The notes beneath the pieces are model-generated. The model did no database searches, was not told the origin of the DNA, and was given only the letters and a program-made list of their open reading frames with translations. This document shows, piece by piece, positions 18,001 to 26,674 of a stretch of DNA of 64,000 nt. How positions within the stretch are numbered: the stretch's first letter is position 1; every line of letters starts with the position of its first letter. The DNA lies in contig JAPEUD010000036.1 in NCBI GenBank assembly GCA_026026165.1, forward strand, positions 62,001 through 126,000, written 5' to 3'. Position numbers and translations under genes: made by a program. Source of the DNA: Sarea resinae (lineage: Eukaryota).

Positions 18001-19460
18001 TGCAATGTACCTGGGTCAGCAAGTCGAACTCGAAGCAGCGAGCTGGTCGTGCAGGCCGTGTCCAGAACGGCAACTACTACGCTCTCTTCTCCAAGCCTCG
18101 CTACGAATCTCTACGAGCCATCGGATTACCGGAAATGCTACGCTCAGATCTCCAAGAAATCTGTCTGGATATCAAGGCTCAAGCTTTCAAGGCTCCCATT
18201 CGAGATTTCTTGGCCGAAGCTATTGAGCCTCCATCCGCAAAAGCAGTTGATGCCTCCGTTAACAACCTGCAAGCACTAGAAGCACTGACGGAGGACGAAA
18301 AGCTCACCCCGCTTGGCCGGCTCCTAGCCTCCCTTCCTGTTCATCCTTCTCTCGGCAAAATGATCGTCCTAGGTGTCCTCTTCCGCTGCCTCGATCCCAT
18401 GCTCATCCTCGCCAGCGGCTCTAGCGATCGTAGTCTCTTCGTCAGTCCCATTGACGCTCGCAGACAGGCAACAGAAGCGCGTCTTGCCTTTGTAGAAGGC
18501 ACAGGGAGCGATCATATCGCCATGATCAACGCCTTCCGTGAAATGCGCCGCATCCGCGAAGAAAAGGGCCAAGGCGCCATGGTTGCCTTTGCCCACCAGA
18601 ACTTTATCCACATGGGCGTCTTCAAACTCATCACGCAGGTCGCCAAACAAATCGAGGAGATCCTTGTCGAAGCCAAATTGATTCCTTACACCCCCATCCA
18701 CGAACGCTACAACTACGAATTTGGTCCTCCAGACCTCAATCGCTTCTCCTCGAAGATCCCACTCATCAAAACCCTCGCGCTGGCAGGCCTCTATCCTAAC
18801 CTGGCCGTTAATGCCGGCGGTCGCAGTTTCCGCACTCCGGGCGAGAAAGGCTGCATGGTGCATCCATCGTCCATCAACTATCTTCGCAGTGCCGGTACCT
18901 TTAACAACTCCCATGCCTCCGAAGAGGATAATAAGCATCCTTACGGTACCCTTTTCGCCTACAGCACCATGGCGCGCTCCAATGACGGGCGTCAGACTTT
19001 CCTCCGCGACACCTCCACCTCCACACCTCTAATGGCTACCTTGTTCGGCGGTCGCCTACGCAATCCCAGCCGCAATATTCTTGAAATGGACGGCTGGCTC
19101 CCCTTCTACGTCCGTGGCGACGACACCCGAGCGGTCAAGACGATCGTCGAGTTCCGCAAGGCGTTGGACCGCCTGCTTACGGGCGCCTTCCGAGACTTGA
19201 GGGATCTTGGCAAACCGCAGGGAGGCAGATGGGGGGACCGGAGCAGGATGCAGAGGGAGAAGAGAGGAGGCTTCGGCGGCGCAAGTTGGCGGAATGGGAA
19301 TGCGAATGGATATGATAATGAGAGCGATGACGGCCAGGGACCAAAGTATCTCGCGGACGAGAAGGCTAGGGACCTGTTCAGTCAGGGCTTGGTCGAGGTA
19401 TTGGATCGCGATGTTAGAGTTCGCGAGGGCATTGCCAGACGCGGATGGCGACGACAGTAG
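15030..19460 (+). CDS. DEAH/RHA RNA helicase, DHX30/DHX36/DHX57-like, with N-terminal dsRBD-like repeats
   Basis: GATGSGKTTQ, TQPRRIAA, DEVH, MSAT, ATNIAETSITIPD, QRAGRAGR, HA2/OB regions; intron 15759-15809 joins the two ORFs in frame. Confidence 0.93.
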
Positions 19461-20272
19461 TAAAACGTCTGTTTCTATAGGTCTATCTCTGGCTGTCTTT
19501 TGGCTTTCTCAGTGTTGTGGTACTTTCTTAATATACATGCATGTCCCCATTTTCATCCTCTTCCCATATGTGCCTTATCCTTAGACTCAGGGCTGAGGGG
19601 TCTGTCGTGCAACTCTGGTGGATTCATTTCTCGTCTGCTTCTATCTTCTCTTTCTAGGTTCGTGCCTGGATTGGAGACAAAAACATCGGCTTCTATCCAT
19701 CCCTGCTGATTCATCGAAGCTATTAATTCGATAGAGAAGGAAAGCGGAGACTTGCTCTGTCTTCAAGTCTTTTAGCTTAGCTATCGCATTTCTAGACTAT
19801 CTACTTGGCTAGCCACTACTATAGTGATATTCACTTAGAATTCAATGTGCAAGATACGTCTCGTTCTCTAGCTAGTACTTCTTGCTGCTGCTCAGTTCCC
19901 TGGATATCGAGTGAATTTGAAGTAGGCAAACAGGAATGTAGTGAATGAGTGAGTGAGTCATGTGTAGGTAGGCTACATATACCTTTCCATGGCAAGACTA
20001 CTTAAAGGTGCGTCCTTCCTGCACCACCTTCTTATCATTTTCAATAACTTACAACCTCATACATCTGTAAGGTCCAGTAAATAGGCAAACCTGTTCCTAC
20101 ATGCGCCAAAAAGACGACTATAGCTTGGTACATCCGGGCTGTGCCTAGGTGTTTGCCTACTATATAGCAGCGCTCCTCACATCATAGGGCTAAAGTTCAC
20201 CGATCCTTATTGGTACACAGTGTAATACTGCTGACTACCTACCTAGCCAGATACTTGTAGCGCAACAGAATA

Positions 20273-21920
20273 GTGTCAAATGCCACTAGCTTTGTGCTAC
20301 TCTTGCCGCACCTCGAATTAAAAATGCAACAACGGCTAAATATGGTCATTCGAGGCCCGACAAGCGCCAAAAATCTTCCCCTCTCTATTCCCTGCAGAGC
20401 CCTTATAATTCTCCTAAGGCGTGGATATCTCGAGGATCACGACATGCTCGAAACGCTGATGAGTGGTAATGAGCAAGACATAGCCATCCTACCTGCTGCT
20501 TAGCATCAGCCGATTTTTCTTGCCGCGACAGCTCATGGACTAGGACTATCAGGATGCCCTAGGAGTGCAAAGTCTTCGACGGGGTATCTAAACATACAGG
20601 CTACGTGGGCCGGGTATCCTCCTAAAACAAACATGTACTTATAGAGGAGGAAGGCAGGAACAAACGTTGAGAGAGCTGCAGGTATTTGCAAAGAAAGTTT
20701 ATTCATGGCACACCAGACTCGCTCTATGGTCTGTGAGAAACATTACGATCAAGGCCTATACGACTTCGATGTCATAGGTGTAGCATTTGAAGGTACTAAT
20801 AGCCGTGGCTTAGATATCCTTAAACAAGAGTTATTAGAAGCAGTACAACGTGCAAAGCTAGTGAGGGTCAGTATAGATAGAGACCTTATTATTAACGCAT
20901 TTGGTACAATACTATGCGGAAGTGCAGGCGGCAAAAGCAGAAAGCAGCAAAAGGGCACTAAGACAGGCAAAGAGAAGAGTGAAGCAGGCAGCCTTAAAGG
21001 CTGTGTTAGCAGAAGAGGTTGCCCTATAGCGGAAGCCGCGAACTCTACTAGAAGTACAAGAGCGGCTAGAAGAACTGCAACGCTTGTCTGAGATACTAAA
21101 AAAGATTGCAGCAAGAATAGACAAGGATGCTATGACCTTGGGCTAAGATAATACGCAAGTCGAAGAAGATATGGATGAGACTTCGGCAGGTGACTAGTTC
21201 CGGGATGTTGAAGTCTCCGGCAGCCAGACGCCGTGAGCAAGAATACCGGAGACAGCATCCCGAGGTACGCCTTTGAAGCAATATGCCCTCGAAAAGATGA
21301 CAGTACTGATTGCTGATCCACTCCTCGCTCAGGCCCTACCAAACACCGAAAACGCTGTCGAGAATGAAGACGGCGCTAGCCATAGAGAGGAGCACGAGGT
21401 TGAAGTTGATCCGGACGAGCATCCATGGGAGCACAGCACAGCATAAACAGAGCTAAAGAGAGTTAACACAAATGTGATCGAAAACCTAGAAGAATGGCGC
21501 AATCTAGTGTTGAAGTTTATAACGCTTATCCTAGAGCTATCGAGTTTATCTCTAGACAGGACCTTCAGGTGCCAGCTATGCTAAATGGACCCAGACGCAT
21601 CAACGGAAAAGAAAAAAGAGCGGGATTGGGTATTCCAAACCCAGCTAGACTACCACGTGAATAGCTTATACCATTCCCTATTTTTGGCCCTTCGCCGCTG
21701 GCTGAAGAAAGAGCAGCAGGAGACCAGAAGTTTAACATGCCCCTTTGGCTATATAAAGGTCTACAGGCAAATGTCTTATCTAATTCGACATCCAAGCCAA
21801 AATACTAATACAACAAATATCTGCATTATACCCTCTTCAGCCACCACTCACCTACATTTCAAGACATTTACTGGTCTTAGACCTAGCTCGCTACCTATGT
21901 ATACCTATACAGTTTCATAA
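20273..21920 (+). pseudogene. DUF3435-like tyrosine recombinase with coiled coil and C2H2 zinc-finger tail
   Basis: Same frame through TAG 20501 and TAG 20642: LSIPCRALIILLRRGYL..QPIFLAA..AGYPPKTNMYL*RRKAGTNVERAAG..FMAHQTRSMVCEKHYDQGLYDFDV. Frameshift near 20903-20916; six further stops (21027, 21144, 21195, 21234, 21444, 21582); then CQLC..HVNSLYH and CPFG..LIRH. Confidence 0.7.
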
Positions 21921-23199
21921 GCTGATAAAGGGCGATTCTATAGCGAAAGGGCCTTTCTACATTGAGAGTTATTCCTAAGGTAAAGTGAGTGCACTAGTGA
22001 TGGTAAACAACTCTTATCCAGTATTTTACAATCTAAGGTATCTCCTACCGGTCAGGAAAGTTCGTCAAAGAAGAAATGCTTCCTTGAGACTATACCATGA
22101 AATCGGAAAGAGGGAAGCTGGCTGGTACAGCGAAGATTTCTTCCCCGGTAAAACGAGTCGAGGAGCCGCACACATAAAGCGAAGGACGTGTGTGCTAGGG
22201 GAAGATGAGATGAGCGATGGACCGTGGGAATTGAAAGCCAGCACCCCAGCTAGAACTGCCGGTGCACCATACCTGGAGGGGTTGGCTGTCTTCGGACCTT
22301 CTCCAGGAGGAACGCCAGGAGTTCATAACCTCAGCCTAGAGGTCAATGCAAAGGCCCTCCGCCAAGATCTTGGCTCAATTCCAGTTCCAGATGACGCTTT
22401 ACATCTGTCTTATAAAGCCGACGCTAGTCTGCCTCTTCCCGCGACTAGTCCTCCGCCTCCGTATGTTGAACAACCATCTATGGCTCAGTATCTCTTACCT
22501 GAGAACACATGTCCGCCATATTTCGATATTGAGGGTGAATATGCGCCTAGTCAGTCCTCTCGCATCTTATAAGCACTCTAGACTGGATGAGCAGCTGTCT
22601 TTACTTTGGTATGTCGTTTTCAGAGAGTAATGCACTACTGGAAGCAGAAGCAGCGACTATTTTGATTTCTTCAGGATTTTCGCTGCAATTCCTGGCAACG
22701 CCATGTAATGGCTGACCTTGACATTGATGTGAACAACGTCGAGAACGGACAAGTTGAGCTGAGGCTCATGATGCTAGGGCCGCCTGTAAAGAATACGGAA
22801 GAGAGCAGCGGGCCGATACTGCCCGGCCCTCCGTTCCCTCTCAGCGAGCGGTTTCTAGACATGATCGCGTTGATAATCCTCTACCCAGGAAGCATCCTCT
22901 CGGCAGATGCGCTCCAAGAGCGTATTGAGAGCCGTAAGATGAACCCTCTGCTGAGAAAATTCATCAGCAGAAACCTGGAAGCGATCGTCGCGGAAGCCGA
23001 AAAGCAGCAGGAAGAGCTCAACGGCCAGAACAGAGAAGGTTGCACGGTAACCTTGAAGAAAAGAAAGTAATGCCTTGTTGTGGCAATCAACCCGACTCCC
23101 AGCAAACAGTTCAAGTGGTCCTTGTGTTCAGGGCAGAGATTGGCGTTATCTAATAGTAGCTGACTCTGCAAAGGAGCGGCCCCTAAAAGCAATAGCAAG

Positions 23200-25500
23200 A
23201 TGCAGAATAAGGGGTGGTTAGTGCAAGTCAGAGAAGACCTTCTTATAGAAGGGAAGGTTGTAGCAATCATGGAAAACAACATCAAATATCCAGAAGAATT
23301 TGATGGTGTGGTAGAACATGGGAGTGATCGTTCGACCGATATTCGGCTCCACGACGGCGGAAAGACACTCTTATGGAGTGACTCGACTTGCGTCTTTCTA
23401 TAAGTCGATCGACTTGGACGAGACTCTCCTGCTTCTGCAGGATCTGAGGGATGACGCGCCTCTTTTGCCGGAAACCAATCTCGACTTACAGACGATTTTG
23501 GTTGATGGCATCGCGGCTAAGAACCTCCCAATGATGTCTCTTGACGCCAGCGAGTCGACACCGAATATTCCGGATCGTTGGGCATGCAATGAGCAGCAGA
23601 AGGCAGCCATTAGGCTGGGCCACTCTGCGCCTAGCGGAGTCGCCATTGTTCATGGCCCACCCGGAACCGGAAAGACCGCGACAGCAGCGAAGCTGCTCCT
23701 CACTCTGGTCAAGGCCAATCCGGCGAGAAAGATACTCTGCTGCAGTGTGATGAACAAGTCGCTGGAGCAGCTGCTAAAGCAGACAGCTGCCATCTTTCAG
23801 TCCGAGAAAACGACCCTCAAAGCAGTCCGCATCTGGAATTAATCGCAGATTGGCCAGCGATTGACTCTAGGGGCCACTACGACAATGCATGGTACCATAT
23901 CCTTCGACATCGACCAAATCAGAGCTCGGCTGGCAGCCAAGACCAAGCACTAGTAGAGTATGGAGTTTATTATACTAAGCTCACTACTATTAGAAGAGAG
24001 CGGCATTTCAGACCCTAAGATAGCTAAAGCATATAGGTTCGATGTCAATAGATTGAACCATTTAGTCATAGCCGAGGCACAAATCGTGTTTTGCACTTGT
24101 TCGATTGAGCAAGGGGAGTACACTGTCAGACCGCGAATACAATGAATATAGTAACCGATTTGTACAGTTCCTTGCACTCCTTATAATAAGAAGAGATAAG
24201 TCTGCAAAAGATCTTAACAGGCGCCTGTTAATAGAGCTACTACCTGCGCACCGACGACAACGAGATGTTAAAATGCAGGATAAGAGATAGAAGGTAGTAC
24301 TACAGAAGTACTAGAATACAACTGTGGTCTGAACCACTACATGGCTAGCAACCGCTAGTAGGGATAGGATAACAGCTAGAACGCAAGCCTTGACGAGGTC
24401 ATATCGTTTGAAGCAGACTATCTCCTCATCGACGAGGCTGCATATTCGAAGCATCCCGATATAATTCTTCCGTTGATGACGCAGCCAAAAGTGAAGATGC
24501 TGTACCTGACAGCCCGAGGCGACCATAAGCAGCTCGGGACAGTCCTGTGCACGGCAGCGGCACAACAAACGTGGGATCCGCCTTTGATGAGCCAATTGAT
24601 TCGGAGAGGATATTCAACGGTGCTGTTAGATATCCAATACCGTTCTCTCCCTGCCCTGTATGGGCACACGACACGGAACTTCTATGATAACCTCCTCAGT
24701 TCACATCCGTCGACACATGGGAGAAAATTCAAGATAATGTTTCAAAAGAACTTAGCATCAATTAAGCTGAGAAACGGTAACGAAAAAGTTGTCGAGTTGC
24801 GAAATGCCTGGGGGCATTTCATTGATATTTCTTACGGGCAATCAGTAACAGAAATGAGCACAAGTAACAGCTCAGAGGCGGAAGCAGTGAGCGTACTTGT
24901 CCAAGGACTCCTGAGTACAGGCATGCCATCAAGTAGGATAACAATCCTGGCGCCCTATACCGAGCAGGTCGACCTGATTCATACTCTTGCAAGGAGAGAC
25001 AGCTGGACGTTGCCTCGACCTCGAAGTCGAACGTCTGAGAATCTTCTCATTACCAACTGAGCCAGTTATGAGCAAGAGCAAATCTAGCCTTCAGTCACGT
25101 CTTCGCTGGTCACGCGTCAACGTTGGGCTTTGTAAATCCATGAGCTGCAAGTTATCAGAGTCACGAATTTTCAGTTGCAAGTCATCACAGTCACAGATCA
25201 CGAGTCACGAGTCCTGCAATCAAGTTGACTACTAGTATCACTGCGAGTCACCATAACGTGTGACGTCTCATCTGCTGACGCAGTCTTCGGGCAGTAAAAT
25301 GATATCATTGTATTTTGCTTCACAAGGACCCAGGGTAGGCTGGCCTTCCTCGCCTCAGATCGCCGCATAAATGTGGTAACCTCGAGGGAAAAGGAGGCCT
25401 ACTTTGTAGTCAGCAATTAGGACTACATATCTTCTGTCAAGGAAGACAACCCTTGTTGGGAAGTCGTGCAAGACATCAATGCCCATGTCGAGGGTTATTG
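23200..25500 (+). pseudogene. Upf1/DNA2/Nam7-like superfamily-1 helicase (AAA_11/AAA_12)
   Basis: Q motif NEQQKAAI, GPPGTGKT, IVFCTCS, LLIDEAA, GDHKQL, LDIQYRS, NSSEAE, ILAPYTEQV, SADAVFGQ*NDII, FLASDRRINVVTSRE; several stops plus an insertion. Ends approximate. Confidence 0.88.
25011..25255. mobile_element. 245-bp insertion, solo-LTR-like, with 4-bp target-site duplication ACGT
   Basis: ACGT at 25007-25010 and 25256-25259; removal restores the helicase frame (SWT-CDVSSADA); termini TG...TA; internal GTCAC repeats. Confidence 0.75.
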
Positions 25501-26229
25501 CATCACTATCAAGCATGGCATAAAACAATAGTCTACATCCGGACTGATCAGTGGGAGCCAGATCCTGCTGTACAGCCCGAGGACAAGATCTATAGCAAAA
25601 GTTGAGCTAGGGACACTAAGCGAGGTAGCGAACAGATCAACGTCGCTCAGCCAATTTTCAAGAAGCAGAGCAGCGACAGCGAGAAGCATTAAAGAAGCAG
25701 CAGCAGGAGCTCTAGAAGAGTATCCTAGCCAAAATCAGAGCTGTGAAGGTAAATGCAAGGGTGGGCGCTATCCGAGAACTTTGCAGCCGGCAATCTGGAG
25801 CGCAAGAAACGAACAAAGGCGCGCGCAATAAATAGCATGATTGATACATTGTCTTATAGCAGCAGTATTTAGATTCGGATATGCAAGATACTAGACCTTC
25901 TCAGCTAGCTATTAAATACTGCATTCTAGAGTAGTAGTAAGTGACTAGCGGCTTAAGTTTAGCATTTTCCATGTACCGCCGTCAAAAGAAGCCATTTGTC
26001 TGTCTCCACTGTCCGTTCGTTGTCCACCCATCATCCATGCATGCATCACTCACATACACCATCATCATCTATTCTATAGATCTCCAATCCCACACAAAAT
26101 CCCACACAACGCACACACCTCTCTCTCCCTCTCTTATCAAGGAAAAAAGGGCTATTCCCTACCCAATCAATCAACACCCAGAAAAAAAAATAATACCCGC
26201 CACGAATGGAGCCAAAAAGATAAGAGTCC

Positions 26230-26328
26230 TGGACGATCGGGGAATCGAACCCCGGACCTTCCGCACATCCATTTAGCTAGAACCTCTAGCGATGCGAAGC
26301 GGACATTATACCCCTAAACCAATCGCCC
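26230..26328 (-). tRNA. tRNA-Ala(CGC) with 27-nt intron (26266-26292)
   Basis: GGGCGAT/ATCGTCC-A acceptor stem with G3:U70, anticodon arm TCCGC-TTCGCAT-GCGGA, T-loop GGTTCGATTCC, downstream T5 Pol III terminator. Confidence 0.96.
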
Positions 26329-26674
26329 GGTGGACGGAAGATCTGGCGGTTTATGGTGGATATGACTCAGGGGGAAAAGTAGTGGTGGGTGGTGGGTGGT
26401 GCGAGGTTGTGTAAGCGAGTGACTAGCTGGGTACTTTGCAGTACTTACCTATCTACTGTACGTGTGGAGTTCACTGGTCGTTGTTTGTGTCTAGTAGTGA
26501 ATAATAGAGTACTCCGGGGCTTGGTACAGAGTAGAGGAGGAAGTAAGTACCTCTGTATACAGACAAAGTGTCGTTCTTTGTTATTGTGTACTCGGAGTAC
26601 TCCGCGAAGATAATGATAGGTTAGTAGTGCATCTATAAGGACAACTCTATATAGTAGCGCTCCTTACAAGGGGA

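What the first reader, a model, noticed from the sequence alone, without database searches (positions are those of the whole stretch)
20273..21920. Hidden YR catalytic motifs and C2H2 tail recovered by reading through stops
Seen: Y-L-*-R-R (TAG probably from TGG), F-M-A-H and E-K-H-Y-D in one frame. They match the order and spacing of the YxxRR...MGH...Y...D box of DUF3435-type recombinases (catalytic R, H, Y). A charged coiled coil and CxxC..H..H fingers follow after one frameshift. The N-terminal half with the first catalytic Arg is not clearly recoverable; VHPG at ~20128-20139 might be a mutated RPG. The ORF track shows only unrelated-looking fragments.
Basis: partly seen in the sequence, partly recalled or inferred. 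Interest (0 to 1): 0.7.

Follow-up and report, generated by a model that had tools for sequence, protein, structure and literature searches.

The report
Dead, half-deleted Starship-type recombinase gene
This is the broken rear two-thirds of a fungal gene for the DNA cut-and-rejoin enzyme that moves giant "Starship" transposons; it is an ordinary fossil, with a weak hint that its lineage settles beside tRNA genes.

Summary
The motifs are real, and this is a dead Starship-captain-type tyrosine recombinase gene in a fungal genome. Read through with X, it finds 205 homologs (best 51% identity, E 3e-48). 22 of 35 scanned pass the DUF3435 cut-off; the relic itself has no Pfam hit. Y, R, H and Y sit in the conserved catalytic columns, and a homolog's model matches Cre (Z 16.3). 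The coiled coil and zinc fingers match homolog tails independently, and the gene runs on to about 22572. It has 8 stops, two frame changes, a lost zinc-finger cysteine and no recognisable N-terminal half. The proposed 'RPG' (VHPG) is wrong: it lies inside a 116-bp repeat with at least 40 copies. Two homologs are listed as family-unassigned clade-3 Starship recombinases. Element ends and cargo are unproven. A tRNA-Ala lies 3.7 kb downstream, and the one homolog locus I could read also abuts a tRNA. The scan has noted dead captains and tRNA-flanking captains before on other DNA.

The parts
20066..20181 (+).
   Evidence: 40 scored of 87 candidates. 5-bp flanking duplication is perfect in 12 of 24 copies with auto-called ends, of 30 examined; 3 of 5 bases here. 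No full-length parent was found.
20245..20319 (+). Possible, very decayed Box I stretch in a different frame; if real, the first catalytic Arg position is not Arg and about 45 codons after it are missing
   Evidence: PSSM score -7.9 (family members score 18 or more); 3 of 300 shuffles reach it with close homologs and 12 of 300 with all; post hoc, 1 of 12 tests. An HMM test found nothing. Inconclusive.
20321..20902 (+). C-terminal half of the tyrosine-recombinase catalytic domain: Tyr 20636, Arg 20645, His 20711, nucleophile Tyr 20744; TAG stops at 20501 and 20642
   Evidence: phmmer; column counts Y 127/141, R 137/139, H 131/131, Y 116/124; codons; the top 8 VIA rows for its model are recombinases, Z 4.2-5.6
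20901..21120 (+). Charged coiled-coil segment after a frameshift at about 20900-20905; TAG at 21027
   Evidence: tblastn of homologs changes frame here; profile match
21121..21560 (+). Acidic linker with 4 stops; 21211-21400 has an 87% identical partial copy at G000:C41:10035-10224
21570..21674 (+). Zinc finger 1 (CxxC ... H-x5-H, long spacer); all four ligands kept, TAA stop at 21582 inside it
   Evidence: columns C 68/68, C 66/67, H 49/51, H 47/49 in homologs
21738..22125 (+). Zinc finger 2, broken: second Cys reads Tyr (21750); the last His and the GW motif lie about 300 bp downstream in another frame (22096-22125)
   Evidence: Cys in 46 of 47 homologs; His-to-His stretch is only 10-34 residues in 41 homologs; profile match in the third frame
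22126..22572 (+). Probable C-terminal tail of the recombinase (rest of ORF 21979-22572)
   Evidence: In frame with the GW motif; no Pfam hit; homology beyond about 22220 not shown
22666..25530 (+). Upf1-like superfamily-1 helicase pseudogene (AAA_11, AAA_12) with in-frame stops; possible cargo, unproven
   Evidence: Pfam; stops; paralogs at C77 and C59 with no captain or tRNA in 17 and 16 kb around them
19835..19875 (+). Left copy of a weak candidate direct repeat
   Evidence: 2 of 200 shuffles reach the score; intervals chosen post hoc, 1 of 6 tests
25869..25908 (+). Right copy of the weak candidate direct repeat, 322 bp from the tRNA 3' end
26230..26328 (-). Intron-containing tRNA gene (Ala, CGC); its 3' end faces the decayed block
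   Evidence: Rfam RF00005, 50.3 bits, the only Rfam hit in the window; isotype from relaxed ARAGORN; default ARAGORN missed it

Best explanation
A pseudogene of a Starship-captain-type (DUF3435) tyrosine recombinase from a divergent, zinc-finger-tailed lineage that the 2024 classification leaves at 'clade 3, no family'. Shown: homology, four retained catalytic-column residues, the tail architecture and the breaks. Inferred from the family: the intact ancestor bound the ends of its own element, nicked DNA through a 3'-phosphotyrosine on the residue at 20744 (helped by R-K-Y-R-H), and excised and re-inserted the element, with the fingers as extra DNA-binding modules. Inferred history: after insertion between a DEAH helicase gene and a tRNA it lost the core-binding domain and Box I, gained a solo-LTR-like repeat upstream, and decayed by point mutation with a mild RIP-like bias. 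Today it makes no recombinase.
For: 205 homologs, best E 3e-48. 22 of 35 scanned pass the PF11917 cut-off. Named homologs are ascomycete proteins. KEQ98213 (90% cluster mate of hit P0026) and EME77334 (hit P0051) are tagged tyr/clade03 in the starfish supplement, and both hits fall with the relic in one FastTree clade of support 0.97. Model of homolog P0007 (pLDDT 86.6): Cre Z 16.3, rmsd 4.0, 231 aligned; XerH Z 14.6; Foldseek Cre E 2.9e-4. The relic's own model aligns to Cre residues 203-341. Tail match independent of the query. 8 stops in 20321-21800 and two frame changes. TpA o/e 1.03 and CpG 0.77, against 0.55-0.64 and 0.95 in the flanking genes.
Against: The relic has no Pfam hit at E<0.1, and the PF11917 search of its own genome does not list it. 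13 of 35 homologs lack DUF3435 at E<=0.01. Its own model gives no Foldseek match at E<=0.001 and only Z 5.6 at best, below the tool's trust level of about 8. The profile match to the catalytic half is circular, since the profile came from hits to it. The tree had no members of named families. 8 of the 10 sets of accessions looked up were absent from the (cut) supplement. RIP is weakly supported: CpA is hardly depleted (0.97), the stop at 20501 sits at a Leu column (93 homologs), and only 12 of 25 differences to the C41 copy are transitions.
Confidence: 0.9

Rival explanations
1. The relic heads a small derelict cargo element of about 6 kb (about 19835-25908) that carried the Upf1-like helicase and inserted into the 3' flank of the tRNA-Ala gene; its lineage targets tRNA flanks as other clade-3 families target 5S rDNA.
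For: The whole block is lower in GC and broken between two intact genes. The captain is at the left end pointing inward. Candidate direct repeat, 2 of 200 shuffles. tRNA 3' end 322 bp from the right copy. The only homolog locus with DNA (L049) has a tRNA-Val ending about 115 bp before a 5'-short captain. No Rfam tRNA in 20-25 kb fetched around the three other DUF3435 remnants of this genome. RNA-run contigs of a near-identical strain cover 19091-19863 and stop there (one study only).
Against: n = 2 loci, with opposite orientation to the tRNA and 3.7 kb distance here. No copy of the tRNA 3' end at the left edge, and no shared flank sequence with L049. The repeat test is post hoc. No empty site: no other strain was available. 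The smallest curated Starship is 15,020 bp. Helicase paralogs elsewhere have no captain. Repeats gather near tRNAs anyway: a second LTR-like end lies 5' of this tRNA.
Confidence: 0.22
2. The relic is a cargo-free ('solo') recombinase insertion, Crypton-like in behaviour; the helicase next to it is a host paralog that died separately.
For: No Starship auxiliary gene among the window ORFs scanned. The helicase belongs to a small family in this genome. The helicase is less TpA-rich (0.81) than the captain (1.03). The 2024 paper could not link some clade-3 recombinases (Family 11) to any cargo element.
Against: Both genes are broken, adjacent and on one strand; a weak repeat brackets both. No boundary between them was found.
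Confidence: 0.45
3. A domesticated, N-terminally shortened DNA-binding protein that is still expressed, like captains that lack the core-binding domain.
For: Tangerine-family captains often lack the core-binding domain, and the Xanthoria one also lacks sites 1 and 2. Four catalytic-column residues and six of eight finger ligands in register survive.
Against: 8 stops and two frame changes, one stop inside the YxxR motif; three different stop codons, so no alternative code; no RNA contig listed over it (weak).
Confidence: 0.02
4. Chance motifs in non-coding DNA.
For: The bare motif occurs 3 times in the window; no Pfam hit; a word-index search found nothing among longer proteins.
Against: E 3e-48 and colinear matches over three frames.
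Confidence: 0.01

Closest known systems
Starship captain tyrosine recombinases, clade 3, family-unassigned (aursub2_KEQ98213.1, psefij1_EME77334.1 in Gluck-Thaler and Vogan 2024, PMC11162782; passages, sections 23 and 27 and supplement searches seen)
   Same: Direct homology; YxxR motif typical of clades 1 and 3; His and Tyr columns; DUF3435 in most full-length homologs
   Different: Dead, 5' half missing, below Pfam detection; no element ends or cargo shown
HhpA of Hephaestus (PMC10104507; passages seen)
   Same: Cre-like fold and Tyr in place of the first His, with a second Tyr about 35 residues later (36 here; Y381 and Y416 in HhpA)
Tangerine captain of Xanthoria parietina (10.1101/2025.11.25.690456; abstract, passages and section 8 seen)
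   Same: Lacks the core-binding domain and active sites 1 and 2, as this relic appears to
   Different: Clade 1, Lecanoromycetes-specific, described as a 283-aa gene; this one has stops and a zinc-finger tail
5S-rDNA-targeting Starships (Voyager, Arwing, Enterprise; PMC11162782 sections 23, 27; PMC9156397 passages)
   Same: Voyager and Arwing are clade 3; association with a polymerase III gene would be analogous
   Different: They insert inside 5S with 6-16 bp repeats; here the tRNA is intact, only nearby, and targeting is unproven
Cre / Xer / lambda integrase superfamily
   Same: Fold of the homolog model (Z 13-16) and catalytic order
   Different: 8-16% identity; fungal coiled-coil and zinc-finger tail added

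Membership tests
Tyrosine recombinase superfamily | Cre/Int catalytic fold | tested here: met
   Homolog P0007 model: Cre Z 16.3. The relic's own half-domain: top 8 rows are recombinases, but Z is at most 5.6 and Foldseek finds none.
Tyrosine recombinase superfamily | Box II residues (H/Y)xxR, H/W and nucleophile Tyr | tested here: met
   20636, 20645, 20711, 20744 in conserved columns
Tyrosine recombinase superfamily | First catalytic Arg (Box I, RPG) and core-binding domain | tested here: not met
   Box I profile at shuffle level in 19461-20330; VHPG belongs to a repeat; the weak candidate at 20245-20319 has no Arg at that place. One 4.8-bit N-terminal hit on the opposite strand beat 100 of 100 shuffles (1 of 8 tests) and is unexplained.
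Tyrosine recombinase superfamily | Catalytic Lys | tested here: inconclusive
   MAFFT puts Lys 20321 in the conserved Lys column; the HMM does not; the PSSM finds no match to the preceding strand
Starship captains (DUF3435) | PF11917 above cut-off | tested here: inconclusive
   Not met by the broken fragment; met by 22 of 35 homologs including the best hit
Starship captains (DUF3435) | Placement in the reference captain phylogeny / family HMM | tested here: inconclusive
   Indirect only: two homologs tagged clade03 share a 0.97 clade with the relic in a tree without named-family references
Starship captains (DUF3435) | Intact reading frame able to mobilise an element | tested here: not met
   8 stops, two frame changes
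Starship element | Captain is first gene, with direct repeats at the ends | tested here: inconclusive
   First gene of the decayed block; only a weak post hoc repeat
Starship element | Empty site in another strain or species | not testable with these tools
   No independent DNA run holds the locus; no eukaryote relatives are served
Starship element | Cargo or auxiliary genes (DUF3723, FRE, PLP, NLR) | tested here: inconclusive
   None among the 28 + 5 window translations scanned (not all ORFs); a broken Upf1-like helicase follows
Crypton (DUF3504-type) recombinases | DUF3504 domain or Crypton-type homologs | tested here: not met
   No DUF3504 listed for 35 + 4 homologs at E<=0.01; DUF3504 as the Crypton marker is from a search listing and recall

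The most novel reading that the evidence does not exclude
This relic and its 200-odd homologs are an unnamed, zinc-finger-tailed clade-3 family of fungal recombinase elements that insert into the 3' flanks of tRNA genes, a eukaryotic parallel to tRNA-targeting bacterial integrative elements, and here the element carried a Upf1-like helicase in only about 6 kb.
Probability: 0.2. Interest if true: 0.68.

Novelty: new member of a known kind. Interest (0 to 1): 0.27.

Why it matters
As it stands it is one more dead captain, useful only as a reminder that Pfam-based screens miss this divergent lineage. If the tRNA-flank link held, it would add a new target niche for Starship-type recombinases beside 5S rDNA and AT-rich sites, give a name and target to family-unassigned clade-3 enzymes, and point to intact homologs as site-selective integrases for fungal safe-harbour sites.

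Tried and rejected
No result: Pfam scan of the read-through; PF11917 on the own genome, which found three unrelated remnants at C28, C35 and C104; word-index search among longer proteins; PDB sequence search with the read-through; PDB profile search, which returned zinc-finger proteins and no recombinase, best E 0.0013; Foldseek with the relic's model. No ESM Atlas result is available. Context of homologs: one metagenome scan and one viral scan found none; a second metagenome scan gave one locus. No second copy of this lineage in the genome. The repeat pair at C89 is not a full retrotransposon: it flanks a dynamin-like gene, named from recall of its motifs. A relaxed ARAGORN tRNA call beside the C104 remnant was not confirmed by Rfam, and 6 of its 7 calls in the window were not confirmed either. 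That all 8 stops are one transition from a sense codon is true of any stop and was not used as RIP evidence. Runs X3 and X4 lay only short conserved pieces, and no RNA contig is listed over the relic; neither shows absence. Helicase search gave only distant hits. Literature on tRNA-targeting Starships: none found or in passages read; C2H2-tailed captains: one listing, not read. The library is open-access only, and the 2024 supplement was cut, so its insertion-site tables were not seen.

Full report
Setting. The window is part of contig C74 of a 25.5-Mb genome; its genes and homologs point to an ascomycete fungus. The finding lies in a block of lower GC (about 0.46 against 0.50-0.58) between an intact DEAH helicase gene ending at 19460 and a Kelch gene starting past 27100.

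Observation. The three motifs are in one frame as described. The pattern alone proves little, since it occurs 3 times in the window's six frames. Pfam finds nothing on the read-through, the DUF3435 model does not list this site in its own genome, and a word-index search was empty. The exhaustive phmmer search settled it: 205 proteins at E<=1e-3, 72 at 1e-10, best 51% identity over 170 residues at E 3e-48, matching window 20321-20830.

What the homologs are. I scanned 35 of the 150 listed hits; 22 pass the PF11917 cut-off and 13 show no DUF3435. The named ones are hypothetical proteins of Aureobasidium, Colletotrichum, Zymoseptoria, Pseudocercospora, Fusarium, Hymenoscyphus, Pestalotiopsis and lichen fungi (30 hits looked up). 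In the supplement of Gluck-Thaler and Vogan 2024 (PMC11162782; searched, cut when stored), KEQ98213 and EME77334 are Starship recombinases of 'clade03' with no family; the other accessions tried were absent. The matching hits share a FastTree clade (0.97) with the relic among 113 rows with at least 140 of 167 columns; the tree has no named-family references. A model of homolog P0007 (pLDDT 86.6) matches Cre at Z 16.3, rmsd 4.0 over 231 residues, then XerH, XerA and lambda integrase. The relic's own 194-residue model ranks eight recombinases first, aligned to Cre 203-341, but at Z 5.6 or less, and Foldseek finds nothing significant. That fits half a domain and is weak taken alone.

Anatomy. Against a profile of 62 long hits (852 positions), the window covers positions 261-427 in one frame, 458-729 in the next and 707-756 in a third. 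The first match is circular; the tail is not, and a tail-only profile scores 49.3, 27.8 and 13.6 bits against at most 0.9 in 100 codon shuffles. Tyr 20636, Arg 20645, His 20711 and Tyr 20744 fall in columns conserved in 127/141, 137/139, 131/131 and 116/124 homologs. YxxR is the clade 1 and 3 form. The frame shifts at about 20900-20905. Finger 1 keeps all four ligands but holds a stop; finger 2 has Tyr for a Cys kept in 46 of 47 homologs, and its last His lies about 300 bp on, against 10-34 residues in 41 homologs. That gap is an intron, an insertion or extra decayed fingers; I could not tell which. There are 8 stops in 20321-21800.

The missing front. Profile positions 1-260, with the core-binding domain, the RPG Arg (82 of 86 homologs) and the Lys (85 of 105), are not recognisable in 19461-20330: the Box I profile scores at shuffle level in all four intervals. 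VHPG lies inside a 116-bp TGT...ACA repeat with 40 scored copies of 87 candidates and perfect 5-bp flanking duplications in 12 of 24 auto-called copies (30 examined). The commonest reading among 29 other copies (13 of 29) would give A-R-P-G in that frame (my translation), so the resemblance is a coincidence of the repeat's own sequence. Two weak leftovers remain: a possible decayed Box I at 20245-20319 (3 of 300 shuffles, negative score, post hoc) and a 4.8-bit N-terminal hit on the opposite strand near 19900-20045. Loss of the same parts is described for the Tangerine captain (10.1101/2025.11.25.690456, section 8).

Decay. TpA is raised (o/e 1.03 against 0.55-0.64) and CpG lowered (0.77 against 0.95), while CpA is near normal. 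The stops at 20642 and 21027 sit at Trp and Gln columns, the one at 20501 at a Leu column. Only 12 of 25 differences to the 190-bp copy on C41 are transitions. I read this as old decay with a mild RIP-like component.

Is there an element? Downstream lies a broken Upf1-like helicase (about 22666-25530) whose two nearest paralogs have no captain or tRNA nearby. A gapped direct repeat at 19835-19875 and 25869-25908 would bracket 6 kb, but it is borderline and post hoc, and curated Starships start at 15 kb. No independent DNA run holds the locus. So ends and cargo are open.

The tRNA lead. An earlier scan note on another genome prompted me to test this. The window's only Rfam RNA is an intron-containing tRNA-Ala at 26230-26328 on the minus strand, its 3' end 3,658 bp from the end of the captain ORF. 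The single homolog locus I could read, L049, has a tRNA-Val ending about 115 bp before a 5'-short, also broken, captain. The other three DUF3435 remnants of this genome have no Rfam tRNA in the 20-25 kb fetched. With at least 52 tRNA genes (63 of 701 candidates scored), a tRNA within 3.7 kb of a random point has a chance of about 1.5%, or 4% if there are 150 (my arithmetic). Against: two loci only, opposite orientations, no duplicated tRNA end, and repeats cluster near tRNAs. I found no report of tRNA-targeting Starships; the papers read describe 5S rDNA and AT-rich targets.

Verdict. It is a dead new member of a known kind (interest 0.27). The tRNA-flank family idea is worth a genome-context survey (probability 0.2, interest 0.68 if true).

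Noticed in passing
window 20066-20181; copies L004-L011, L025-L045: A family of 110-122-bp TGT...ACA repeats with 5-bp flanking duplications, about 90% pairwise identity, at least 40 copies; unusually short for a solo LTR; no full-length parent found. Its ends also appear in RNA-run X2 contigs.
   Followed up: partly
window 26409-26668: A second, single-copy LTR-like stretch (TGT...ACA) whose last 22 bases are 91% like the end of the 116-bp repeat, 5' of the tRNA-Ala.
   Followed up: partly
G000:C41:10035-10224 (L003, L021): 190 bp of the captain's acidic linker at 87% identity, behind a microsatellite and an ATG, followed by exons with two C2H2-like motifs: perhaps a captain piece recruited into another gene.
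   Followed up: partly
window 25762-25818 and G000:C24:86549-86605: 57 bp at 96% identity to the start region of an ORF on C24; suggests capture of a host fragment near the right edge of the block.
   Followed up: partly
G000:C28:21132-22364, C35:422993-423256, C104:95559-95984: Three further degenerate DUF3435 remnants of other lineages in the same genome.
   Followed up: partly
L049:110-2191: A metagenomic homolog with tRNA-Val just upstream, a start near the end of the core-binding region, one stop and a degenerate first finger.
   Followed up: yes
window 21263-21558, 22290-22319, 22922-22951, 25560-25615: Contigs of run X1 break at these places and depth rises (556 against 360 in 21242-21875), hinting at related copies not held in the assembly.
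   Followed up: no
G000:C77:39378-39923 and C59:80800-81459: Divergent Upf1-like helicase paralogs (33% and 24%) with only distant database hits: a small lineage-specific family.
   Followed up: partly
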